Origin: a virus
DNA length: 37,808 bases
Virus record (IMG/VR): IMGVR_UViG_3300045988_014803
Span: 1 to 37,808 of that record
Strand: one strand, 5' to 3'
In this document: positions 1 to 25,660 of the stretch, in pieces
Numbering within the stretch: position 1 is the stretch's first letter
How the letters are laid out: the number at the start of each line of letters is the position of its first letter
Translations under genes and position numbers: made by a program
The notes under the pieces: model-generated
Told to the model about the DNA's origin: nothing
What the model saw: the letters and a program-made list of their open reading frames with translations, nothing else
Database searches by the model: none

Positions 1-99
1 ACTGCTTTTTTTATTTTCAATCAAGCGGAGGTAATTTTATGAGAAAAAAACTGCGAGTGGCAGGATATGCTCGTGTTTCAACAGATGAACAAAAAAAAT
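1..99 (+). repeat. Terminal overlap copy 1 (circular-assembly redundancy)
   Basis: Exact 99-nt match to 37710-37808. It contains the RBS and first 20 codons of the integrase gene. Confidence 0.9.
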
Positions 100-1373
100 A
101 TGGCTACTCAATACAGGCCCAAGCTGAAGAAATAACGCAATGGTGCAGCGACAATGATCATGACCTAATACATATCTACATTGACGAAGGATTCTCAGCA
201 AGCACCATGAAACGCCCGCAACTGCAATCCATGCTTTCAAACCTGAAGAATCTTGATGCCATAGCTTTCACACGCCTTGACCGCCTGTCACGTAACGTCC
301 TTGAAGCTAACAAGATGCTTGAACTTCTTCAACAGAATGACGTTGCCATGATTTCCATTTGTGAGGACGATATAAACACGTCCACTGCAAATGGCTTGTT
401 CATGTTCAACCTAAAAGTCAACCTTGCAGAACATGAATTAAAAAAAGGCTCTGAACGCATCAAAGCCGTATTTGAGTACAAGATTGCACAAGGCCAACCT
501 ATCACTGGTAATGTTCCTTTTGGCTACAGGATTGCCACGGAAAACGGCAATAAACGCATTGCAATTGATGAATCTAAAGCACCAATAGTTAAAGATATTT
601 TCGAATCATTTCTCCTGCATCAATCAGTACATTATACAGTTGAATACGTCAACAAGAAATACGGACTGTCTAGACCTTACATGTCCTATATGCACATTCT
701 TAAAAATGAATTTTATGCAGGATCATACCGTGGAAATTCCAATTACGCCGAACCATACATCACGAAAGAAACATACAATGCCGTTCAGACCGCATTACAG
801 GCAAATATACGCACTGGAATACAACGCCATACATATTTATTCACTGGACTGTTAAGATGCCCAGAATGCCGTTCTAAACTGGTTGGAGTGAGCCATCCAA
901 AAGGTGGCAAGCGATATTATTACTATAGATGTAACAATGCACACTCGGTGCATACATGCACACACAAAAAGCACTATGCGGAACTTGCAACGGAAAAATA
1001 TCTGCTTTCTAATCTTGATACACTGCTTAAAGATCATATCGTCACAATATCCAATGCAACATCCGAAACTCATAACACAACCGAAAAGGAATTAAAAGAA
1101 CTAAGAAAAGAGCTTGATAATCTGAATTATATCTTCATCAAGAAACGTATGCCTGTAAGTACCTATGAACGTCTGTACGCTGAGACAGAAGATAAAATAA
1201 AAAGGCTTGAATCTTTCAAACCTAAAAGCACCGATCATCTTAACCAATTTTTGAACAGTGGTTGGCGCTCAATATATGATAATCTAACACGTGAGAACAA
1301 GCGCACACTGTGGCGAAATGTCCTTGATTCTGTCCACGTTTCCCCTGATGGAATAGAAGTTTTCTTCAAGTAA
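39..1373 (+). CDS. int: Large serine recombinase (integrase)
   Basis: N-terminal resolvase-type catalytic motif VAGYARVSTDEQ. Recombinase domain, Cys-rich zinc ribbon (CPECRSK...YYYYRCN...HTCTH) and C-terminal coiled coil. GGAGGT RBS upstream. Confidence 0.92.
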   Translation: MRKKLRVAGYARVSTDEQKKYGYSIQAQAEEITQWCSDNDHDLIHIYIDEGFSASTMKRPQLQSMLSNLKNLDAIAFTRLDRLSRNVLEANKMLELLQQNDVAMISICEDDINTSTANGLFMFNLKVNLAEHELKKGSERIKAVFEYKIAQGQPITGNVPFGYRIATENGNKRIAIDESKAPIVKDIFESFLLHQSVHYTVEYVNKKYGLSRPYMSYMHILKNEFYAGSYRGNSNYAEPYITKETYNAVQTALQANIRTGIQRHTYLFTGLLRCPECRSKLVGVSHPKGGKRYYYYRCNNAHSVHTCTHKKHYAELATEKYLLSNLDTLLKDHIVTISNATSETHNTTEKELKELRKELDNLNYIFIKKRMPVSTYERLYAETEDKIKRLESFKPKSTDHLNQFLNSGWRSIYDNLTRENKRTLWRNVLDSVHVSPDGIEVFFK

Positions 1374-17804: not shown

Positions 17805-19505
17805 TTAAATCATCTGGAATGTGAAGTCACCTTCATTCAAGAAATAATCCTGCTCAAGAAGGTAAATTGCATTGATAAGTGATACCACCATATCAACTTT
17901 TCCGTTGCTCTTTTTCTTGCTCACATACATATTTTTGTTTGTGTCATATGCACATTTCGCATTCTGAAAGTTGATTTCAAGAAGTTTGTTTTCTGTGTAT
18001 TTGAATTTTTGTGTAAGGATTGCTTCTTTCATCCTCTTTGTTGGTGAATGCAAGACGCTTGGATACTGCTTGATTTGAACCGTGTTATAGCCCTCATTAG
18101 CCAATTTCTGCGCTGTGCTTAATGCATTCCATCTATCATATCCAATCGCCTGTATTTGTACGTTATAACGGCTCTCAAGACTCAAGATGAATTGCTCAAC
18201 AAACGCATAGGAGATAACCCTGTCACCACATGCTAACACCTTCCCACTTTTCAGCAATTCCTGATAGTTCACACGCTCTGATATTGTCTTTTTCGTGATT
18301 CTGTCTGCCGGAATGAACGCAAAACTTTCTGCAAGAATGTTATCATCATCATCTACAGAAACCATAGCGACAGATGTATTATCGTTCGATTCTGAAAGGT
18401 CAACACCTAAATATACTACTCTGCCTGACCAATCAATGTTAGCAACCTTGCATGCTTGAACATCTTTAACATCAATAAATGTCTCTGTGCCCTGTCCTTG
18501 ATAGATAATGTTGCAGTGCTTTGTTACAAAGTTCTCTCGCTCGTTCTCAATGGCAATGGCTCTGGCACGCTTCTTGATAAGATCATCCCAAATTTCAGGG
18601 ATTTCAAGTGCTGACGGATTCGCCTGTTTCAGAATAAGATCATCTGTTTCCCAATCAGACGTTTTGTCAGGCTCATACAGCAGCGCAAATACTGTTTCGT
18701 CTTTCTCAATGCCGTCAAGAATTTTTTTGGCATATGCAACCTCATCCTCGAATGGATTGTCGATTGTCGGATATTTTGTACTGATTACGAACCCAAGTTT
18801 ATTAAAGACGTTAAGCTGCCCTGACCTCATTGCATCGACAGGATATTTATTTGGCAATGCTCCAACTTCATCCGCAATAAATGCATTCGGCATACGTCCG
18901 TCCATACGGTTACTGTATGCCAACGGAATTAACGTGTTTTCATTCGGCTTGAATTTTATGTAGTCCCTTAGCAGCTTGAAACGCTTCGTTCCTTTGTACT
19001 CGTATATCAGCGGACTGCTTTTGATTGTATCTGAGATTGCCCCTTTGATTTCTCTCGACAAAGAACCATCTGGTGCAACTGAAAAGAATTTTGAGAACTT
19101 TGGTTCAGTAAGAAACAGAATGATAAAAATTGTTCCGACTGTATATGTCTTAAAATTCTTTCTGCAAATCTCCAACAGCCCTGTTTCGTATCTGCGTTTT
19201 TTAGGATTCTCCCGATACACCGTGCCTAGCATTGCGATATAAATAAGCCACTGATAACCAGTGGAGCACTTATACATAGACTGTCCGGCCTTGAGGCCTT
19301 TCGGCATAATCAACAGTTTCAGGATGTTCTCAATCTGCTGTACTTTCTTTTCGGATACGAAATACTTTCTGTCTTTTCCCTCAGCAATCCTCATCCATGC
19401 TTTCATTTGTAACTTAACGTACTTCGGAGTGGTTTTCTTTCTAATAGATTTTTTGCAATATTCGTAAGCCTTACTACTCGTCACCGCCATCATCTTCACC
19501 ACCAT
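17805..19505 (-). CDS. terL: Terminase large subunit (Terminase_1-like)
   Basis: About 560 aa. RRYETGLLEICRKNFKT is a Walker-A-like region, with a nuclease-type C-terminal half. Start is ambiguous (19505, 19493 or 19490) and overlaps the terS end. Confidence 0.88.
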   Translation of the reverse strand: MVVKMMAVTSSKAYEYCKKSIRKKTTPKYVKLQMKAWMRIAEGKDRKYFVSEKKVQQIENILKLLIMPKGLKAGQSMYKCSTGYQWLIYIAMLGTVYRENPKKRRYETGLLEICRKNFKTYTVGTIFIILFLTEPKFSKFFSVAPDGSLSREIKGAISDTIKSSPLIYEYKGTKRFKLLRDYIKFKPNENTLIPLAYSNRMDGRMPNAFIADEVGALPNKYPVDAMRSGQLNVFNKLGFVISTKYPTIDNPFEDEVAYAKKILDGIEKDETVFALLYEPDKTSDWETDDLILKQANPSALEIPEIWDDLIKKRARAIAIENERENFVTKHCNIIYQGQGTETFIDVKDVQACKVANIDWSGRVVYLGVDLSESNDNTSVAMVSVDDDDNILAESFAFIPADRITKKTISERVNYQELLKSGKVLACGDRVISYAFVEQFILSLESRYNVQIQAIGYDRWNALSTAQKLANEGYNTVQIKQYPSVLHSPTKRMKEAILTQKFKYTENKLLEINFQNAKCAYDTNKNMYVSKKKSNGKVDMVVSLINAIYLLEQDYFLNEGDFTFQMI

Positions 19506-19845
19506 TAAGGATCTTCATAAGCGGGTCTGCATCCTCGGTTGTATCACTTACGTTATAATTCTTAATGATCTTCATAAGAGTTGCAACTGTTCTATTCGCA
19601 CTATCTGTTGTTGCATTATAATCTTTTACTGCTGGACTAGAATATAAATTTTTTCTGCCTTTAACATATTCTTTTTCAACTAATATTCCATCCTCTTTTA
19701 TAGATTTTTCTAATTCATATAACATAACTAATTGCATTTGATATCTTTTGAATGTAGTTATAAAAAAATAATTACTTTGTACTCCACTTTCTTCTGCAAT
19801 TTTTAAAATCTCTTGTGCTTGTTCAGTTAAAGTCATTTTTGCCAT
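19474..19845 (-). CDS. terS: Terminase small subunit (P27-like family)
   Basis: 123 aa directly upstream of terL. ...YFFITTFKRYQMQLVMLYELEKSIKEDGILVEKEYVKGRKNLYSSPAVKDYN... has the P27-family pattern. Acidic C-terminal tail. Confidence 0.8.
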   Translation of the reverse strand: MAKMTLTEQAQEILKIAEESGVQSNYFFITTFKRYQMQLVMLYELEKSIKEDGILVEKEYVKGRKNLYSSPAVKDYNATTDSANRTVATLMKIIKNYNVSDTTEDADPLMKILNGGEDDGGDE

Positions 19846-19866: not shown

Positions 19867-20418
19867 TTATTTAAGATTTTTTATTTGATATGATTTATTA
19901 TAAGTCTTTTGGTCCTTAATCATAATTTTTAAAAAATCTTCTCTTGTTAAATTAGATAATCTAAATACTTCTTCTGGTTTCATTCCTAATTCCTTACATA
20001 TTTCTTTTGTTGTTTTTCCTTCATCCAATAATTCTTTTACTATCGCTTTCATTGGTTCTAATAAATGAGTTCCTCTTGCTCTATTATGTGTGATAGTACC
20101 ATAGACATCTTCTGCATGGTCTTTATGGTCCACAATAACAACTGGAACTTTATTTTTTAATAATGTTTTTAATGGTTCTCTACCTGATACAGTCCATCTA
20201 TGAAAACCATCTATAATTGTATAATCCGGTCTTATAACTATTGGCATAGTCCAACCATTTGTTAATATAGACTGAACTAATAATTCAAGATTTTGTTCTG
20301 ATACTTTATTTGGGTTGTAATTATTTGGTTTTAATAAATCTCTATCAACAAATTTAACATTTTCTAAAGGTTCTAATATATTTTTATTTTCATATTTTTT
20401 TATTTCATTTTCTTTCAT
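19867..20418 (-). CDS. ParB/Srx-fold N-terminal-domain protein (IbrB-like)
   Basis: 183 aa. LLKPNNYNPNKVSEQNLELLVQSILTNGWTMPIVIRPDYTIIDGFHRWTV carries the DGxHR ParB-like core. C-terminal HTH-like segment. Confidence 0.7.
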   Translation of the reverse strand: MKENEIKKYENKNILEPLENVKFVDRDLLKPNNYNPNKVSEQNLELLVQSILTNGWTMPIVIRPDYTIIDGFHRWTVSGREPLKTLLKNKVPVVIVDHKDHAEDVYGTITHNRARGTHLLEPMKAIVKELLDEGKTTKEICKELGMKPEEVFRLSNLTREDFLKIMIKDQKTYNKSYQIKNLK

Positions 20419-20729
20419 ATACTACTCTCCTTAGCTATATCACTATATAAATTAAATTCAAAACTTCTTAACGTTCTTCCTTTGGGGTCTCCACCAATTA
20501 CTATATTACATAACTCTTTGTAATGTTTTTGATTTAAAAATGGTCCATATTTAATTAATATTCTATTAATACGCTTTTTTACATACTGCATAGATTTATT
20601 ATCAAATCTCCATTCTTCTTTTAACATCTCAAAGAATTTATTCTTATAATCAACTTCTTCGTCTTTCTTTGCTTGTTTATTTTTCTTTTGTCTTCTAAAT
20701 AATTCAGTATCATAATAAAGCATTGCCAT
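20415..20729 (-). CDS. Hypothetical protein, possibly the C-terminal fragment of the decayed IbrA-like gene
   Basis: 104 aa. In frame with 20742..21128, separated only by a TAG plus 4 codons. Confidence 0.5.
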   Translation of the reverse strand: MAMLYYDTELFRRQKKNKQAKKDEEVDYKNKFFEMLKEEWRFDNKSMQYVKKRINRILIKYGPFLNQKHYKELCNIVIGGDPKGRTLRSFEFNLYSDIAKESSI

Positions 20730-20741
20730 ATAAGCATTTGG

Positions 20742-21128
20742 CTATCTTTTACAAATCTTATCAAATAGCCCAGGGTAAAATTCACACATGTTAACTAGGC
20801 TTCTTATTGTATCTATGCTAAAAAATTGACTTATTCTTAATCTATTAATTGGAATTCCTACTTGATACATAAATTTATAGGCATCTGGAAATTCTAAGTT
20901 ATTATCTCTTATGTACATCCATACATCTTTATCAGTCCAATCATAGATAGGAAACATTTTTCCTTGTGATGTTTTTATATTTGCCAAATTCATTGATCTT
21001 TGAACACTTTCACTTGCTCTACCACCACTTACTGATAATTCAATTCTACTAGCAGTTTTAAATATGTTTTTTATTCTTGTCTTTGCCATTGTTACAACAT
21101 CAACATTTGAATATTGTTTTTTAATCAA
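20742..21128 (-). CDS. Internally deleted PAPS-reductase-like (IbrA-like) remnant
   Basis: 128 aa. The PP-loop start ELSVSGG is joined after about 24 aa to the C-terminal block FPIYDWTDKDVWMYIRDNNLEFPDAYKFMYQVGIPINRLRISQFF. The catalytic core between them is missing. Confidence 0.6.
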   Translation of the reverse strand: MIKKQYSNVDVVTMAKTRIKNIFKTASRIELSVSGGRASESVQRSMNLANIKTSQGKMFPIYDWTDKDVWMYIRDNNLEFPDAYKFMYQVGIPINRLRISQFFSIDTIRSLVNMCEFYPGLFDKICKR

Positions 21129-21744
21129 GATAAATCATCTCCCCACAAGATGGGCATATAATATATTTCTTCTCATTTTTCTCAGTGCCGACTTTTGTTT
21201 CCGTTACCATTGTTACTTGTTCATTTTTAATTTCTGGTTCTTTTTTAATTTCTTGTTCTTTATAACTTGTTTCTTGCTTTGAATCTTCTTGGGTATATTT
21301 AACATCTGTTATAACTCCATAATTACTAATTGCTTCTTCAACTTGTTCATCTGTTGCAGTCATTTGCTCCAAAATAAACTTGTCATAACCAGCGATTTCA
21401 AAATCTCCCATTCCAGTTATCTCTTGGATGTAATTATTTATTTCATCGTAATTATCTGCACCCAAGCTATAAATTTTATTATCACTTAAAATTAATTTTT
21501 TCTTTTCAACTTCTGATAGACCTGTTTTTCTATAACATTGAACATCTGCTTTATTCATTTTTACTAAAGCAAAATATAAACCATTACCAATTAAGATATT
21601 ATTATCTTCATCAATAACCATTGCTCTTGTTTGTCCAAATTGTTCTACACTTTTAATTAATTCATCAATTTGTTTATCATTATGTTTTCTAACATTCTTC
21701 TCCAATGGTTTTAGATCATTTATTTTTACTACTTCTAATTTCAT
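21121..21744 (-). CDS. Degenerate ParB-like N-terminal-domain protein with C-terminal zinc ribbon
   Basis: 207 aa. VVKINDLKPLEKNVRKHNDKQIDELIKSVEQFGQTRAMVIDEDNNILIGNGLYFAL has GNGL where ParB-type domains have GHGR. Lys/Glu-rich linker, then CPSCGEMIY at the C-terminus. Confidence 0.6.
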   Translation of the reverse strand: MKLEVVKINDLKPLEKNVRKHNDKQIDELIKSVEQFGQTRAMVIDEDNNILIGNGLYFALVKMNKADVQCYRKTGLSEVEKKKLILSDNKIYSLGADNYDEINNYIQEITGMGDFEIAGYDKFILEQMTATDEQVEEAISNYGVITDVKYTQEDSKQETSYKEQEIKKEPEIKNEQVTMVTETKVGTEKNEKKYIICPSCGEMIYLD

Positions 21745-21745
21745 C

Positions 21746-22540
21746 TCATTCTCCTCTACTTTCTAAAAATTCTCTAGCACTTGTTAATCTGCTACTAGCA
21801 TTTATTACAATGCTTTTATCAATATCATATAATTCTTGCCATACTTCATTTTCTGTTTTATCCATTATGGCTCTTTCAGTCCATTCTCCCATTGCTATTG
21901 ATCCTATTAAAAAACCCCTATCCCATTTATAAAATGGTGGTAATTCTATATTGTTATATTTTATATAAGCAAGTAATTGTTCTGCATTCCAATTAGCAAG
22001 AGGAGAAAAGACATCATAATTACTCTTACTAACAATATAATTATTTTCTTTATTTCCACATTGGTTTCCATCTTTGATTCTTCTTCCTGCTATAAATAAA
22101 TCAAAATTATATTTATTAATATCTTTATTTTGTCTTTCCCACTTTGTTGACATCCAATTTTGTCTAGTCTTACCTTTACAAAATAAATACTGTGGATGTT
22201 TTTCTAAATATTCCAGACTATATTTATCAATAACTTCTTCAATTAGATTTTTAGGTTTGTTTTCATTAATCCATTTTCTCATTTCTGGGTATTCATTAAT
22301 GCCACACCAGAATATAGGTGTTGATTTAATTCCTGATCTATTAATAATATCTTGTAGTACAATACTATCTTTACCTGCTACCCAACCATTACAAATATTT
22401 TTATATTTTTGGGATATATCTCTAATAAATGATGTTGTTTCATCTGTTAATTTATCAATATCATATCTAGTGTAAATATTAGTACATTTATCAAATGCTT
22501 CTAACCATTCACTATTATCTTTTATATTTTGTTTTTTTAG
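21746..22540 (-). CDS. PAPS-reductase-family (PP-loop, DndC/IbrA-like) protein; 5' end frameshifted relative to the only ATG
   Basis: The frame is open from 22540. NGWVAGKDSIVL is a PP-loop variant of SGGKDS. IAGRRIKDGNQCG and FSPLANWNAEQLLAYIKYNNIELPPFY are also present. The first in-frame canonical start is only at 22282; an RBS-preceded ATG at 22547 is out of frame across an A7 run. Confidence 0.65.
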   Translation of the reverse strand, partial: LKKQNIKDNSEWLEAFDKCTNIYTRYDIDKLTDETTSFIRDISQKYKNICNGWVAGKDSIVLQDIINRSGIKSTPIFWCGINEYPEMRKWINENKPKNLIEEVIDKYSLEYLEKHPQYLFCKGKTRQNWMSTKWERQNKDINKYNFDLFIAGRRIKDGNQCGNKENNYIVSKSNYDVFSPLANWNAEQLLAYIKYNNIELPPFYKWDRGFLIGSIAMGEWTERAIMDKTENEVWQELYDIDKSIVINASSRLTSAREFLESRGE

Positions 22541-22551
22541 TCAGCATAACA

Positions 22552-23535
22552 TCACCCATTCAATGATTTTACTGATACATAGCCAAGTATTATTGTTGCT
22601 ACTATAAAACTTATAACTCCAACAATTGAATTAATTGTTATTTGTCCTAAAGTTGCAAATAATACCATTAGTCCAAATGTTATTGCTGATACTGGAATTA
22701 CTATATTTGTTTTTTTCTTTAATGCTAACGGTAATAACAAAATACCAACTGCAAATGCAAATCTAATAACTCCAAATGAGCTCCATAATTGAAGTATTCC
22801 CATTTTAACAAATACTCCAAATGCAATACATAATAATAGTGAAAGTCCTGTTCCTATTCTTTTATTTCCTACCTTATGAAGTGCTACTGCAATACTATCT
22901 ATTGTTGATGTAGTTACTCCAAGAACTGCTACTAATAAAATAATATGCATTGGTAGTGTAAATTTAAAGAAAGCCATTCCTAATATTAATAACATATAAA
23001 GTCCAAATAAAAATGCTCCTAAATAATAACCTTTTTTACTTTCATCTGCTTCTGCTCTTTGCCAATGTTGTACATCTCCAATAGGTCCAGCAAATAAAAT
23101 AAGTCCAGACCATATTCCCCATAACACACCACTCATGCCAGTTGGTGCAAATACTTGTAATGGGGCTTTTGTAAATATTCCAACTGCTATAACTGCTATT
23201 ATTGATACAATAGCCATGATCCATTGATATACATCTGTTTTAACTGATGTTGGTAGTCCTTTTTTGTAAACAATTAGAGTAAAGAAAAATCCTAATGCTA
23301 TTGTTATCAAATATGCTGTAATTGTACTACCTGTAATAATTAAAAATTGTTGATTTATAAAATTCAACTGAACTAATAGGCTAAATAATTGAATTATTAA
23401 TGCTATCACTTTTACTTCTTTTCTATTATAAGTTTCTGGACTAATTTTTTTCTTGTTATATAGCCATCCAAATAATGCAAGCGTTAAGGTGTTACAATTT
23501 GTTGTCACATGATTAAAGATGTTCCCCATGCCCAA
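22552..23535 (-). CDS. Polytopic membrane protein, sodium:solute-symporter-like
   Basis: About 10 hydrophobic segments. GPIGDVQHWQRAEADESKKG resembles the SSS-family DQxxxQR segment. First gene of the AT-rich module. The annotated start is a TTG. Confidence 0.6.
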   Translation of the reverse strand: MGMGNIFNHVTTNCNTLTLALFGWLYNKKKISPETYNRKEVKVIALIIQLFSLLVQLNFINQQFLIITGSTITAYLITIALGFFFTLIVYKKGLPTSVKTDVYQWIMAIVSIIAVIAVGIFTKAPLQVFAPTGMSGVLWGIWSGLILFAGPIGDVQHWQRAEADESKKGYYLGAFLFGLYMLLILGMAFFKFTLPMHIILLVAVLGVTTSTIDSIAVALHKVGNKRIGTGLSLLLCIAFGVFVKMGILQLWSSFGVIRFAFAVGILLLPLALKKKTNIVIPVSAITFGLMVLFATLGQITINSIVGVISFIVATIILGYVSVKSLNG

Positions 23536-23594
23536 CTTGCAGCACTTGAAGCACCTATTTTTTTAAAACTTAGTTTCTCATTTCCCATTTTCAT
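23505..23594 (-). CDS. 29-aa ORF, probably the displaced true N-terminus of the membrane-protein gene
   Basis: AAGAAAGG RBS then ATG. MKMGNEKLSFKKIGASSAASWAWGTSLIM is transporter-N-terminus-like. It overlaps the start of 22552..23535 in another frame. Confidence 0.35.
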   Translation of the reverse strand: MKMGNEKLSFKKIGASSAASWAWGTSLIM

Positions 23595-23689: not shown

Positions 23690-23719
23690 ATTATAGCGTG
23701 AATTTGGCCGTTTATCCAA
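23690..23719 (-). promoter_or_regulatory. Sigma-70-type promoter of the AT-rich module
   Basis: The minus strand reads TTGGAT-N18-TATAAT. It is flanked by the inverted repeat AAACGGC...GCCGTTT. Confidence 0.5.
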
Positions 23720-23810: not shown

Positions 23811-24191
23811 TTATTTTAGCCTGTCAATTCTCTGCCTTGCTAGCTTCTTTAAATACTCTTTTTCAATCATTCCTGCATCAGCTAACCTGTGACAGTCTTT
23901 GCATAAGCATATAAGGTTATCGTCTTCCAACCATAGCTCTGGCTTGTCTTTCAACTTATCTATGTGATGCACTTCTATGTTACGGTAGTTATATATACCT
24001 TTGTCCTTGCATACTTCACATAGATAGTTTGCATCTTCTCGTATCTGCTTGCTCTTCTCTGTCCATGCACTCTTGCTCCTGAGCCTTGACTCTTTGTAGC
24101 TGTACTTGTAGTGCTTCTTCTCTACATGACAGACATATCCTTTCGGATGTATCTTCCCACACCTGCTACATGAATAATAGCCTTGTGCCAT
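23811..24191 (-). CDS. HNH endonuclease (packaging-associated type)
   Basis: CSRCGK...CEVCKDKG...EVHHIDKL...NLICLCKDCH is an HNH/zinc-finger signature. The start overlaps the endolysin stop. Confidence 0.85.
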   Translation of the reverse strand: MAQGYYSCSRCGKIHPKGYVCHVEKKHYKYSYKESRLRSKSAWTEKSKQIREDANYLCEVCKDKGIYNYRNIEVHHIDKLKDKPELWLEDDNLICLCKDCHRLADAGMIEKEYLKKLARQRIDRLK

Positions 24192-25264
24192 TACTTAACT
24201 CTGATACGCTGCCCAGCATAAATCTTGTTAGGATTACTGATACCATTCATAGCCTGTAGCTTCTGCCAAGTTGTGCCATATCTGGATGCAATACCTGATA
24301 GTGTATCTCCACTACGTACAGTGTAATATACTGCCTGAGATGCACCTAGCTTCTGGTTGACGATATTCTGAATAGTATTATAGTCATATCCTGCCTGTTC
24401 CAATCTGCTCTTACGGTTGTTACCGTCTCCCCACTTTCCAGCAATTACCTCACTTGCAATCTGATCATTTGACTTTCTAACAGGTGCAACCTTCTTGTTT
24501 ACAATGTCCTGAATAACATTGTAATCATATCCTGCTTGTGTAAGTCTGTTCTTGCGATCTTCACCATTTCCCCAAACTCCTGCAATTACCTCGTCTGCTA
24601 CCTGTTCATTGCTTTTTTTAACAGGTGTTGGTGTAACTGGTTTTGTTTCACCTTTTGGATTTGCGTACTTGTGCCATGCTGTTGCATCACCATAGAATTT
24701 ATCTAAGTCAAGGTTCCTACTATATCCTGCCAGTTTTCCAGAGCTTGAATACTGTCTGATAGCGCAATCATATGCTCCCTCATTCCATGGATGTGCCTGA
24801 TATCCTGTTGCGTTGTTATCTGCATACTGTGCAATCCATAAGCCATAGTCTCCAATGCCAGACACTTCTTTATACAAGCTTGCAGATGCATAGATTAAAG
24901 GTTTAACCCCCGTTTTTTCTACAATTCGATTGCACCAGTTACTAATCCATGCTCTAGCTGGACCACCTGTCCCACACAGTGCGTTGCCCTGCCACTCCCA
25001 GTCTAAGCAAAGAATAGCTTCGCCAATATATCCTTGAATGTTCTTCAAGAAATGGTCTGCTTCTGCTACTGCATTTCCACCATTTGCATAATGGTATACA
25101 CCTAATAGCTTTCCGTTAGCTTTTGCCTGCTGATAAGCTCTGTCACAATCAGGATTCACATATCCTGTACCTTCTGTAGCTTTGCAAATTACAAAGTCAC
25201 ATGGTACAACACTTAAATTAATTCCTGCTTGATAGCTTGCAATATCAATTCCGTTTAATGCCAT
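24191..25264 (-). CDS. Endolysin: GH25 muramidase + 2 CW_7-like repeats + LysM
   Basis: N-terminus [14 protein letters not shown]...[13 protein letters not shown]...GVYHYA indicates GH25. Two repeats VIAG.WGNG..RK.RL.QAGYDYN.IQ.IVN.K. C-terminal [30 protein letters not shown] is a LysM. Confidence 0.9.
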
Positions 25265-25303
25265 TTTTTTCGCCCTCCCTAATATACTTCAATATGAACA
25301 GTG

Positions 25304-25660
25304 CTAATGATTCTGTCCTCGTTCATTTTCCAAGTCCTTGATTCTTTGTTCGTGATCATCCTTGTATTTGAACAGCGTATTTACACGTTCCGTAACAAGA
25401 ATTAGTTGCTCTGATACCTTTTTCAGCTGCTCAGTCTTTTCGCCGTTATCTGCCATCATTTTCTTTGATGTATCATAGAATTCGTCAAGCTTTACGCTGA
25501 TTTTTACAAAATTCTTTTCGATGTCCATCTGCCGATTCTTTTCTCGCTCTGCCTGTTCTTCCTGACGTTTTTTGCCACCTGCAAATGTGTTAATTAACGT
25601 ACATGCCAGTGATGTCAAGGAAATAAGTAATGCGATGCTTACACTTGCTTCAGGAGTCAT
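25304..25660 (-). CDS. Membrane-anchored coiled-coil protein of the lysis cassette
   Basis: 118 aa. One N-terminal TM segment, then a charged coiled coil. Lies between the holin and the endolysin. Confidence 0.6.
   Translation of the reverse strand: MTPEASVSIALLISLTSLACTLINTFAGGKKRQEEQAEREKNRQMDIEKNFVKISVKLDEFYDTSKKMMADNGEKTEQLKKVSEQLILVTERVNTLFKYKDDHEQRIKDLENERGQNH

What the first reader, a model, noticed from the sequence alone, without database searches (positions are those of the whole stretch)
19867..22547. Two tandem ParB-like / PAPS-reductase-like gene pairs (IbrB/IbrA- or DndB/DndC-like) directly upstream of the packaging genes
**Gene order (minus strand):**
- PP-loop/PAPS-reductase-family protein (22540->21746), with NGWVAGKDSIVL, IAGRRIKDG and FSPLANW...LPPFY.
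- Degenerate ParB-like protein with a zinc ribbon (21744->21121).
- IbrA-like remnant (21128->20742, continuing in frame to 20415).
- ParB/Srx-fold protein with a DGFHR core (20418->19867).
- terS follows immediately.

**Known parallels:** A ParB-fold protein paired with a PAPS-reductase-fold ATP pyrophosphatase is the architecture of DndB/DndC (DNA phosphorothioation) and of the poorly understood prophage-borne IbrB/IbrA pair.

**Inference:** No function is established for such pairs next to phage terminases. Their position, co-transcribed into terS/terL, fits either a DNA-modification or anti-restriction activity acting on DNA as it is packaged, or a ParB-like partner for packaging-site recognition. 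This is the best candidate in the window for an uncharacterised functional system.
Basis: partly seen in the sequence, partly recalled or inferred. Interest (0 to 1): 0.75.

Follow-up and report, generated by a model that had tools for sequence, protein, structure and literature searches.

The report
Decayed phage ParB/PP-loop/transporter gene cassette
The region is a mutation-riddled copy of a five-gene module (a transporter, two ATP-using "PP-loop" enzymes and two ParB-like DNA-binding proteins) that hundreds of gut-bacterial viruses keep intact directly in front of their DNA-packaging genes, and whose function nobody has yet established.

Summary
The unit is larger than described, though, and this copy is broken.

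**What the unit is**
- It is a five-gene cassette: SSF-like transporter, PP-loop enzyme "A", degenerate ParB, IbrA-like PP-loop enzyme, IbrB-like ParB/HTH, followed by terS/terL.
- A relative of PP-loop enzyme A turns up in 411 IMG/VR stretches and 171 species genomes, mostly gut Clostridia.
- Gene order is kept in 136 of 139 testable loci.
- dN/dS is 0.09-0.25 for all five genes.

**State of the window copy**
- The transporter is cut by a 43-nt deletion.
- Enzyme A is frameshifted by an extra A (A6 to A7) five codons in.
- IbrA has an in-frame 384-nt deletion starting at its PP-loop, plus a GAG-to-TAG nonsense codon.
- Only the two ParB-fold genes are intact.
- Phages about 97% identical from other samples carry the intact cassette.

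**Family assignment**
- The second pair is true IbrA/IbrB (E. coli YbdN/YbdM) family.
- The first pair belongs to different families.
- None of the genes is DndB/DndC or CysH.

**Function**
No function is published. My best inference (about 0.4) is a late-expressed, ParB-targeted, adenylation-dependent DNA modification that uses an imported precursor, and that is lost in this phage.

The parts
23690..23719 (-). Sigma-70-like promoter candidate (TTGGAT/TGGATA, 17-18 nt spacer, TATAAT) in the 275-bp gap between the HNH gene and the cassette
   Evidence: Promoter-like sites in the region are no more frequent than in shuffled sequence, so this is only a candidate.
23505..23594 (-). Stub of the transporter gene: MKMGNEKLSFKKIGASSAASWAWGTSLIM*. 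It keeps the conserved SxAAxWxWxxSL motif and is then cut off by a frameshift.
   Evidence: Intact relatives encode 361 aa starting with the same residues.
23496..23497 (-). Junction of a 43-nt deletion in the transporter gene, relative to all intact relatives
22552..23535 (-). Remaining reading frame of the SSF-like transporter (327 codons from a TTG), out of frame with its true start
   Evidence: No Pfam hit. hhalign of this family against the SSF transporters of sister cassettes gives probability 98%, E 1.8e-13.
22515..22547 (-). True start of PP-loop enzyme A (ATG 22547) and the 10-codon stub MLTKKTKYKR* created by an A6->A7 insertion at 22532-22538
21746..22540 (-). PP-loop enzyme A ('PAPSr-A') reading frame, with motifs GWVAGKDS, GRRxKDGNxCG and LPPFY. 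It is frameshifted from its start codon.
   Evidence: Pfam PAPS_reduct 3.3e-10. 95% identical to the intact 271-aa P0001. AF2 pLDDT 92.6 with a PP-loop fold.
21121..21744 (-). Degenerate ParB-fold protein (207 aa, intact). It has GNGL in place of the ParB arginine motif and an invariant C-terminal CPxCG.
   Evidence: phrog_620 2e-35, phrog_498 (ParB domain of DNA methyltransferases) 2.5e-22, PADLOC MTase_II 9.5e-12. Conservation.
20742..21128 (-). IbrA-like remnant, part 1. It has an in-frame 384-nt deletion with its junction at about 21017-21022 (SVSGG|RASES) and ends at TAG 20742-20744, where relatives have GAG.
20415..20741 (-). IbrA-like remnant, part 2 (the C-terminal helical domain, downstream of the nonsense codon)
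19867..20418 (-). IbrB-like ParB/Srx-fold protein with DGFHR and HNRARG motifs and a C-terminal HTH (183 aa, intact)
   Evidence: Pfam ParB_N 34.3 bits. phrog_2159 3e-70. 37% identical to E. coli YbdM, E 5e-31. 67-69% identical to Faecalibacterium phage Taranis gp38.
19474..19845 (-). Small terminase subunit, 21 nt downstream of IbrB. It marks the downstream boundary of the cassette.

Best explanation
**What it is (shown).** Window 19867-23594 is a pseudogenised copy of a conserved, horizontally acquired five-gene phage module. The module is an SSF-like transporter, PP-loop enzyme A, a degenerate ParB, an IbrA-like PP-loop enzyme and an IbrB-like ParB/HTH protein. It is inserted between the HNH gene and terS of a temperate siphophage from human gut. 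In intact relatives all five genes are under purifying selection and keep this order directly upstream of terS/terL.

**State of this copy (shown).** The transporter, enzyme A and IbrA are each inactivated. Only the two ParB-fold genes are intact.

**How the intact module most likely works (inferred, about 0.4).**
- It is made with the late/packaging genes.
- The ParB-fold proteins bind phage DNA. IbrB would do so through its HTH. The degenerate ParB is of the type fused to phage DNA methyltransferases.
- The ParB-fold proteins bring the PP-loop enzymes to the DNA.
- The PP-loop enzymes use ATP to adenylate a carbonyl, carboxyl or phosphate group, and AMP is then displaced by a sulfur or nitrogen nucleophile.
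- The transporter imports a precursor or donor. A class-II glutamine amidotransferase is added in some variants.
- The result is a covalent modification of progeny DNA before packaging.

**Consequence here.** In this window the chemistry is lost. The surviving ParB genes either have a residual DNA-binding role or have simply not been hit yet.
For: **Homologies:**

**Same cassette elsewhere**
- Faecalibacterium phage Taranis has transporter-ParB-IbrA-IbrB and then, after two small genes, terS-terL. Riemerella phage PJN03 has a related arrangement.
- A 92-95% identical relative (L008) has intact transporter (361 aa), enzyme A (271 aa), IbrA (364 aa) and IbrB (183 aa) genes. Fully intact cassettes, including the 207-aa ParB, occur in L016/L017 and in L179, L180 and L182.

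**Lesions:**

**Intact relatives.** A protein-identical ParB207 sits in a fully intact cassette in three other samples (L179, L180, L182), and flanked by intact genes as far as the fetched sequence reaches in three more (L178, L185, L186). The five loci that reach the transporter gene are about 97% nt identical across the cassette.

**Distribution**
- 411 IMG/VR stretches and 171 species genomes.
- Order kept in 62/64 and 74/75 loci.
- A transporter lies directly upstream in 62/64 and 75/77 loci.

**Selection:** dN/dS 0.09-0.25 for all five genes.

**Transporter:** the window type is homologous to the SSF type. Some variants use an SsuA/TauA-like ABC transporter instead, and some add a GATase.

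**Evidence that it acts on DNA**
- ParB207 most resembles the ParB domains of DNA methyltransferases.
- IbrB has an HTH.
- Canonical IbrAB in phage CHPC1148 is preceded by an SNF2 helicase.

**Enzyme fold and motifs**
- Both enzymes have a PP-loop fold.
- Both have an invariant GKDS motif.
- IbrA has a conserved Cys triad, C96/C104/C116.

**Foreign origin:** cassette GC is 0.25-0.30 against 0.40 for the rest of the genome.
Against: - No chemical or genetic data exist for any member, so the DNA-modification step rests entirely on inference from domain associations.
- The module has no nuclease/nickase, base-exchange enzyme (TGT/DpdA), cysteine desulfurase or SMC-like ATPase, all of which known DNA-modification pathways use.
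- A conserved transporter could equally point to small-molecule metabolism.
- The nearest solved structures are only distant (TM about 0.45-0.5) and include tRNA- and metabolite-directed enzymes.
- All assemblies showing the three lesions appear to derive from one sample (ERR525851/SAMEA2580068; for two of them, ERZ27239509 and JGI 3300029039, the sample of origin was not determined), so the lesions have not been confirmed in an independent sample.
- Survival of both ParB genes could mean they have a separate function.
Confidence: 0.7

Rival explanations
1. Regulatory or packaging role. The ParB-fold proteins (IbrB above all) are the functional core. They would act as DNA-binding or sliding factors that activate late/prophage transcription, or that mark the pac/cos region for terS. 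The PP-loop enzymes would be accessory.
For: - In database annotation IbrA/IbrB are labelled 'co-activators of prophage gene expression'.
- IbrB abuts terS in nearly all loci.
- IbrB is the most conserved gene of the module, with dN/dS 0.09-0.13 and dozens of invariant residues.
- Both ParB genes survive intact in the window while the enzymes decayed.
Against: - Canonical IbrAB in Streptococcus phage CHPC1148 lies after the lysis genes, far from the terminase.
- In L011/L012 the cassette lies downstream of the terminase and portal.
- The PP-loop catalytic motifs and the transporter are as strongly conserved as IbrB. A purely DNA-binding role does not explain that.
- By gene length alone, four lesions would miss both ParB genes by chance about 27% of the time (my calculation).
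- L008 has a nonsense codon in ParB207, and L025 has lost about two-thirds of IbrB (only residues 118-183 remain).
Confidence: 0.2
2. Small-molecule pathway. The transporter imports a metabolite. The two PP-loop enzymes (with a GATase in some variants) and the ParB/Srx-fold proteins, acting as kinases or NTPases like sulfiredoxin or SerK, convert it into a cofactor, nucleotide analogue or signal. The product would be used for host takeover or counter-defence, not for direct DNA modification.
For: - A transporter is conserved directly upstream in 137 of 141 loci.
- Some variants add a class-II GATase, which with the PP-loop enzyme gives an AsnB-like pairing.
- Foldseek hits include FAD synthase, NAD synthetase, GMP synthase and LarE.
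- IbrB weakly matches the ParB-fold serine kinase SerK and its structure 1vk1.
Against: - IbrB has an HTH.
- ParB207 lacks the nucleotide-binding arginines and most resembles the ParB domains of DNA methyltransferases.
- Canonical IbrAB is associated with an SNF2 helicase.
- No fusion to a metabolic domain was seen among 221 family clusters.
Confidence: 0.15
3. Auxiliary sulfur-assimilation genes. The PAPS-reductase-like proteins would act as CysH/CysD to boost host sulfate reduction during infection, which is how phage 'PAPS reductases' are usually interpreted.
For: - Both enzymes hit the Pfam PAPS_reduct domain.
- PHROGs file both families under 'moron, auxiliary metabolic gene'.
- Some cassette variants carry SsuA/TauA-like sulfonate-type ABC transporter parts.
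- Papers describe phage PAPS reductases as sulfur AMGs.
Against: - CysH and CysD models score 17-36 bits against cut-offs of 154-413.
- Enzyme A has no conserved cysteine across its family and no C-terminal catalytic cysteine.
- The obligate pairing with two ParB-fold proteins and the fixed position before terS have no parallel in sulfur assimilation.
- No other cys genes are present in the genome.
Confidence: 0.04
4. The copy is still functional. Transcriptional or ribosomal slippage on the A7 run would restore enzyme A, and the TAG would be read through. Alternatively, the lesions are assembly errors.
For: - A7 runs are slippage-prone (general knowledge).
- As far as could be traced, the assemblies with the lesions come from one sample.
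Against: - Intact relatives use A6 and need no slippage.
- TAG is an ordinary stop codon in 9 of 50 genes in this window.
- The 43-nt and 384-nt deletions cannot be bypassed.
- The stretches compared from four of these assemblies (ENA ERZ918807 and ERZ27239509, JGI, Logan) are identical over this region, and a fifth (ENA ERZ28567810) gives the same truncated gene calls.
Confidence: 0.04

Closest known systems
IbrA/IbrB of E. coli and their K-12 paralogues YbdN/YbdM (PAPS-reductase/DUF3440 protein plus ParB-like protein; function unknown)
   Same: - The terS-proximal pair is homologous. IbrB183 versus YbdM gives E 5e-31, and intact IbrA-like versus YbdN gives E 2e-25.
- The gene order is the same (enzyme first, then ParB), with overlapping stop and start.
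- The DGxHR and HNRARG motifs are the same.
   Different: - The phage IbrA-like protein gives no Pfam DUF3440 hit. Only about the first 50 residues of that domain align.
- It carries a C96/C104/C116 triad. The first two cysteines are absent from YbdN in the pairwise alignment.
- Here the pair is embedded in a five-gene unit with a transporter, a second PP-loop enzyme and a second ParB.
- In this window IbrA is a pseudogene.
DndB/DndC of the DNA phosphorothioation system (and SspB/SspD)
   Same: A ParB-superfamily protein is encoded next to a PP-loop ATP pyrophosphatase that is thought to act on DNA.
   Different: - Window proteins give no DndC, DndB, SspB or SspD model hit. A relative's IbrA reaches 30 bits against the 290-bit DndC cut-off.
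- The genome has no DndA, DndD or DndE.
- It is a phage late-region module, not a host defence island.
ParB-domain DNA methyltransferases of phages (PHROG 498; PADLOC MTase_II)
   Same: ParB207 aligns with their N-terminal ParB domain (E 2.5e-22 and 9.5e-12). In both cases a ParB module is coupled to a nucleic-acid-modifying catalytic module.
   Different: - Here the catalytic partner is a separate PP-loop enzyme whose reading frame overlaps the end of ParB207, not a fused SAM-dependent methyltransferase.
- ParB207 ends in a CPxCG tail.
Glutamine-dependent PP-loop amidotransferases (asparagine synthetase B type; Gat-QueC of phage 7-deazaguanine pathways, from my own knowledge)
   Same: Some cassette variants place a class-II (Ntn) glutamine amidotransferase directly after enzyme A.
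   Different: - The two are separate genes, and the GATase is present in only about 5 of about 160 loci.
- There is no QueC/AsnB sequence match and no TGT/DpdA base-exchange enzyme in the genome.
Assimilatory PAPS reductase CysH / ATP sulfurylase subunit CysD
   Same: They share the adenine-nucleotide alpha-hydrolase fold. PAPS reductases are the best Foldseek hits for enzyme A (E 2e-7, TM about 0.5).
   Different: - Scores are far below the family cut-offs.
- The catalytic cysteine is missing.
- The genomic context is entirely different.

Membership tests
IbrA/IbrB (YbdN/YbdM) pair | ParB/Srx-fold protein homologous to YbdM/IbrB, with DGxHR and HNRARG motifs and a C-terminal HTH | tested here: met
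   - Window 19867-20418 versus E. coli YbdM: 37% identity over 170 aa, E 5e-31.
- Pfam ParB_N 34.3 bits against a 26.3-bit cut-off, plus weak HTH hits.
- The motifs are 100% conserved in 103 homologues.
IbrA/IbrB (YbdN/YbdM) pair | Intact PP-loop (SGGKDS) PAPS-reductase-like protein homologous to YbdN/IbrA, encoded directly upstream | tested here: not met
   - In the window, 128 codons after the SGG of the PP-loop are deleted and a TAG follows.
- The intact orthologue in L008 does match YbdN (E 2e-25) and canonical IbrA (hhalign 99.8%).
IbrA/IbrB (YbdN/YbdM) pair | C-terminal DUF3440 domain (PF11922) in the enzyme | tested here: not met
   - Intact cassette IbrA proteins give no DUF3440 hit at E<=1.
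- IbrA of phage CHPC1148 hits it at 6e-52.
- Only about 50 residues of the domain align.
IbrA/IbrB (YbdN/YbdM) pair | Activation of prophage (eib) gene expression | not testable with these tools
   This is known only from genetics in E. coli (my own knowledge, and database labels).
DndB/DndC DNA phosphorothioation | DndC equivalog (TIGR03183, cut-off 290 bits) | tested here: not met
   No hit for either window enzyme at E<=0.01. A relative's IbrA scores 30 bits.
DndB/DndC DNA phosphorothioation | DndB / DGQHR-domain ParB protein | tested here: not met
   Neither ParB-fold protein hits an NCBIfam or PADLOC DndB model. The motif here is DGFHR.
DndB/DndC DNA phosphorothioation | Partner genes dndA (cysteine desulfurase), dndD (SMC-like ATPase) and dndE | tested here: not met
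   Precomputed Pfam annotation of nearly all called genes of the genome shows none of these.
SspABCD / BREX type 4 BrxP | Match to the SspB, SspD or BrxP models | tested here: not met
   PADLOC gives only fragmentary BrxP hits of 16-20 bits (E 6e-4 and 4e-5) and no Ssp hits.
Assimilatory PAPS/APS reductase (CysH) or CysD | Score above the NCBIfam cut-offs, and a C-terminal catalytic cysteine | tested here: not met
   - Scores are 17-36 bits against cut-offs of 154-413.
- Enzyme A has no cysteine in its last 100 residues.
- No cysteine is conserved across its family.
Partition ParB (CTPase clamp) | Box II GxRRxxA nucleotide-binding arginines, and a ParA partner | tested here: not met
   - ParB207 has GNGLYFA and gives no Pfam ParB_N hit.
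- IbrB has DGFHRWT.
- No parA is present in the genome.
Sodium:solute symporter family (SSF) | Match to Pfam PF00474 or to its relatives | tested here: inconclusive
   - The window-type membrane protein gives no Pfam or NCBIfam hit.
- Its family profile aligns to the PF00474-positive transporters of sister cassettes with hhalign probability 98%, E 1.8e-13 over 208 columns.

The most novel reading that the evidence does not exclude
The intact five-gene module is a previously undescribed phage DNA-modification pathway. Two ParB-fold proteins would target two PP-loop adenylating enzymes to replicated phage DNA just before packaging. A phage-encoded SSF-like transporter would import the group (or its precursor) that is attached. 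This would give hundreds of gut Clostridia prophages a modified genome that resists host restriction. The window shows a natural loss-of-function variant.
Probability: 0.3. Interest if true: 0.85.

Novelty: new variant of a known kind. Interest (0 to 1): 0.55.

Why it matters
- **A mislabelled gene class.** Phage 'PAPS reductases' are among the genes most often called sulfur auxiliary metabolic genes in viromes. This analysis shows that at least this large group is not CysH. It belongs to a fixed five-gene module with two ParB-fold proteins and a virus-encoded transporter, placed directly before the packaging genes.
- **An old open question.** If the module modifies DNA, it would be a new modification chemistry. 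It would also explain the long-uncharacterised IbrAB/YbdNM gene pair of E. coli.
- **Material for experiments.** Cultured hosts with intact prophage copies exist, including Parablautia intestinalis, Acetatifactor muris, Dysosmobacter segnis, Flavonifractor porci and a C. difficile strain. Natural knock-out variants such as this window also exist. Together these make the question directly testable.
- **Limits of this window.** For this window alone the practical message is more modest: the cassette here is a set of pseudogenes plus two surviving ParB genes.

Tried and rejected
- **TAG recoding or read-through of the IbrA stop.** Rejected. TAG ends 9 of 50 ordinary genes, and relatives have GAG at that position.
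- **Programmed frameshift at the A7 run.** Unlikely. Every intact relative in which the site was checked (L008, L178) has A6 and a plain in-frame ATG.
- **Degenerate PP-loop 'SGGRAS'.** Rejected. It is a deletion junction that fuses SVSGG to RASES, formed between two imperfect 19-nt repeats.
- **A second IbrAB copy.** Rejected. Enzyme A and ParB207 show no BLAST similarity to YbdN or YbdM.
- **DndBC, Ssp, BrxP, CysH/CysD membership.** All fail the model cut-offs.
- **Megablast against 50,697 phage records.** No match. blastn found only terL/portal similarity to Lactobacillus delbrueckii phages and one ParB hit.
- **PDB sequence searches.** Nothing useful.
- **Foldseek against PDB and BFVD.** Only the generic PP-loop fold, with no DndC-like or other close match.
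- **Search for informative domain fusions.** None among 221 enzyme-A clusters or in the IbrA and ParB207 hit lists.
- **Literature.** Ten searches found no functional study of this cassette.
- **Rfam and tRNA scans of the window.** Nothing found.
- **Promoter and terminator scans.** Counts are not above chance.
- **Model coordinates.** I could not inspect them, so the geometry of the IbrA cysteine triad remains untested.

Full report
**1. The observation**

All genes in this part of the window are on the minus strand.
- The frame 22540->21746 matches Pfam PAPS_reduct (3.3e-10) and phrog_424.
- 21744->21121 matches ParB-like phrog_620 (2e-35).
- 21128->20415 matches the 'PAPS reductase' phrog_2302 (4e-36), but only over model positions 169-316 of 381.
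- 20418->19867 matches Pfam ParB_N above its cut-off and phrog_2159 (3e-70).
- terS starts 21 nt further on.

Two details were missed.
- The first frame has no start codon. It opens at a CTA right after a TGA. The only ATG (22547) is one base out of frame, and an A7 run lies between them.
- The 327-codon membrane-protein frame just upstream (22552-23535) belongs to the same unit.

**2. Origin and context**

- The window is a 37.8-kb human-gut metagenome contig (JGI 3300029039). ENA and Logan assemblies recover the same genome with different start points, so it is a complete, circularly assembled genome.
- It is a temperate siphophage. It has a serine recombinase, CI/Cro-like repressors, ERF, SSB, dUTPase and a DnaC-like loader. 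Then come holin, endolysin, HNH, the cassette, terS, terL, portal, ClpP and capsid.
- terL and portal are about 68% nt identical to Lactobacillus delbrueckii phages.
- The cassette has 25-30% GC against about 40% elsewhere, so it was acquired from a lower-GC source.
- No methyltransferase, TGT/DpdA, cysteine desulfurase or SMC-like ATPase appears in the precomputed Pfam annotation of the called genes. A short stretch of tail genes lay outside the two annotated loci.

**3. The real unit is a five-gene cassette**

- Faecalibacterium phage Taranis carries membrane transporter, ParB-like, IbrA/PAPS reductase and IbrB, followed by terS and terL. Its proteins are 20-67% identical to the window's.
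- A relative 92-95% identical in DNA (L008) encodes transporter (361 aa), PP-loop enzyme A (271 aa, starting MGDTMLTKKQNIK), ParB-like, IbrA-like (364 aa, with SGGKDS), IbrB (183 aa), terS and terL.
- Searching with the enzyme-A family found 411 stretches in IMG/VR and 171 species genomes. Almost all are gut Clostridia (Lachnospiraceae, Oscillospiraceae, a C. difficile strain), with a few Bacteroidales.
- ParB207-IbrA-IbrB follow enzyme A in order in 62 of 64 viral loci and 74 of 75 genomic loci that have enough sequence. A transporter lies directly upstream in 62 of 64 and 75 of 77. terS/terL follow.
- The transporter is usually a Pfam-positive sodium:solute symporter, nearest to PanF/PutP. 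Sometimes it is the shorter window type, and rarely an ABC permease plus an SsuA/TauA/NMT1-like binding protein.
- A profile comparison shows that the window type is a divergent relative of the SSF type (probability 98%, E 1.8e-13). They share the motif SxAAxWxWxxSL.
- About five loci add a class-II glutamine amidotransferase after enzyme A.
- Among intact relatives all five genes have dN/dS of 0.09-0.25, similar to terS, so the module is functional in general.

**4. This copy is decayed**

Compared with intact relatives the window has four lesions.
- A 43-nt deletion (junction 23497/23496) leaves a 29-codon stub of the transporter, MKMGNEKLSFKKIGASSAASWAWGTSLIM*. The rest of the gene is out of frame.
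- One extra A (A6->A7, 22532-22538) gives a 10-codon stub, MLTKKTKYKR*. The rest of enzyme A has no start.
- An in-frame 384-nt deletion in IbrA runs between two imperfect repeats, TCAGTAA(G/T)TGGTG(G/T)TA(A/G)AG. It fuses the SGG of the PP-loop to RASES.
- A GAG->TAG change sits at 20742-20744.

TAG is a normal stop codon in this genome, ending 9 of 50 genes.

The lesions have only been seen in one sample.
- The stretches compared from four assemblies are identical over the region.
- As far as the sample of origin could be traced, the assemblies showing the lesions come from one infant-gut sample, ERR525851/SAMEA2580068.
- Independent confirmation therefore needs read mapping.

Other relatives differ.
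- Phages with a protein-identical ParB207 occur in six other samples. Three loci (L179, L180, L182) show the complete intact cassette, 361-270-207-364-183 aa. In L178, L185 and L186 all genes within the fetched sequence are intact.
- The loci that span the cassette are about 97% nt identical to the window.
- Other relatives show different, independent hits:
  - a nonsense codon in ParB207 (L008);
  - a split transporter (L015);
  - a broken enzyme A (L181);
  - multiple deletions (L025);
  - an enzyme A::IbrA fusion joined at the two PP-loops (P0089).

The module is therefore dispensable and is lost repeatedly. The similar PP-loop coding stretches act as recombination points.

**5. Family assignments**

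- IbrB183 is a clear YbdM/IbrB homologue (E 5e-31).
- The intact IbrA-like protein is a YbdN/IbrA homologue (E 2e-25; hhalign 99.8% to the IbrA of Streptococcus phage CHPC1148).
  - It gives no Pfam DUF3440 hit.
  - It has its own conserved cysteine triad, C96/C104/C116.
- Enzyme A and ParB207 are not similar to YbdN or YbdM.
- Enzyme A is a stand-alone family of about 265 aa, with 221 clusters at E<=1e-30.
  - It has an invariant GKDS, RRxxDGN and a conserved N-terminal KKQ.
  - No cysteine is conserved across the family.
- ParB207 lacks the ParB arginine motif (GNGL) and ends in an invariant CPxCG.
  - It most resembles the N-terminal ParB domains of phage DNA methyltransferases.
- AlphaFold models of intact relatives have pLDDT 92.6 for enzyme A and 80.1 for IbrA.
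  - Both are PP-loop ATP pyrophosphatase folds.
  - They are only distantly related to PAPS reductase, TtuA, TilS, CysD, GMP synthase and LarE.
- DndB/DndC, Ssp, BrxP, CysH and CysD membership all fail.

**6. How it probably works**

Shown:
- the composition of the module;
- its fixed position before terS;
- purifying selection on all five genes;
- retention of the catalytic motifs;
- tight or overlapping gene junctions, with no minus-strand terminator before terS.

Inferred:
- The ParB-fold proteins bind DNA. IbrB has an HTH. ParB207 is of the methyltransferase-associated type. Canonical IbrAB is preceded by an SNF2 helicase in phage CHPC1148.
- They recruit the PP-loop enzymes, which adenylate a target group that is then substituted by a sulfur or nitrogen nucleophile.
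- The transporter supplies a precursor.
- The occasional GATase points to amide or amidine chemistry for enzyme A.
- The IbrA cysteine triad points to a metal or Fe-S site.

I put about 0.4 on DNA modification before packaging, 0.2 on a regulatory or packaging role for the ParB proteins, 0.15 on a small-molecule pathway, and under 0.05 on sulfur assimilation. In this window the chemistry is lost whichever model is right.

**7. Novelty**

- IbrA/IbrB labels on phage genes are common, and phage PAPS reductases are usually read as sulfur auxiliary genes.
- In ten literature searches I found no description of the five-gene module, of its transporter, or of any function.
- It is best filed as a new, extended variant of the IbrAB kind.
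- The window itself holds a natural knock-out copy.

Noticed in passing
window 23811-25660 (minus strand): The lysis genes (a Phage_holin_Dp1 holin and a GH25+CW_7+LysM endolysin) and an HNH endonuclease lie directly upstream of the cassette and the packaging genes. The cassette is inserted between HNH and terS, which are usually adjacent in HNH-dependent cos phages.
   Followed up: partly
P0089 (metagenome protein, 395 aa); window 21006-21035: P0089 is an enzyme A::IbrA chimera joined exactly at the two GKDS PP-loops, which deletes ParB207. The window's own 384-nt IbrA deletion also starts at the PP-loop codons. The similar PP-loop coding stretches seem to be recombination hot spots.
   Followed up: partly
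L009 6325-7365; L018: Two relatives carry a 346-aa glycosyltransferase (PF00534) between terL and portal. The window lacks it.
   Followed up: no
L003 2448-5498 (Streptococcus phage CHPC1148): Canonical IbrA (DUF3440, 6e-52) and IbrB are preceded by an overlapping SNF2-family helicase gene. They lie after the lysis genes, not next to the terminase.
   Followed up: partly
L025 (IMGVR_UViG_3300045988_076696): A close relative in which only six separate fragments of the cassette align, implying several internal deletions. It is either a heavily decayed copy or a mis-assembly.
   Followed up: no
window 19474-19845: terS has 31% GC, between the cassette (25-30%) and terL (40%). The recombination boundary of the acquired segment may therefore lie inside or just after terS.
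   Followed up: no
L011/L012 4321-9035: In one lineage the cassette, with an ABC permease and an SsuA/NMT1-like binding protein but no ATPase gene, sits downstream of the terminase, portal and minor capsid genes instead of upstream of terS.
   Followed up: no
window 39-1373 (+ strand): A 444-aa serine recombinase (Resolvase, Recombinase and Zn_ribbon_recom domains) is among the few plus-strand genes in the window. With the CI/Cro-like genes it marks the phage as temperate.
   Followed up: partly
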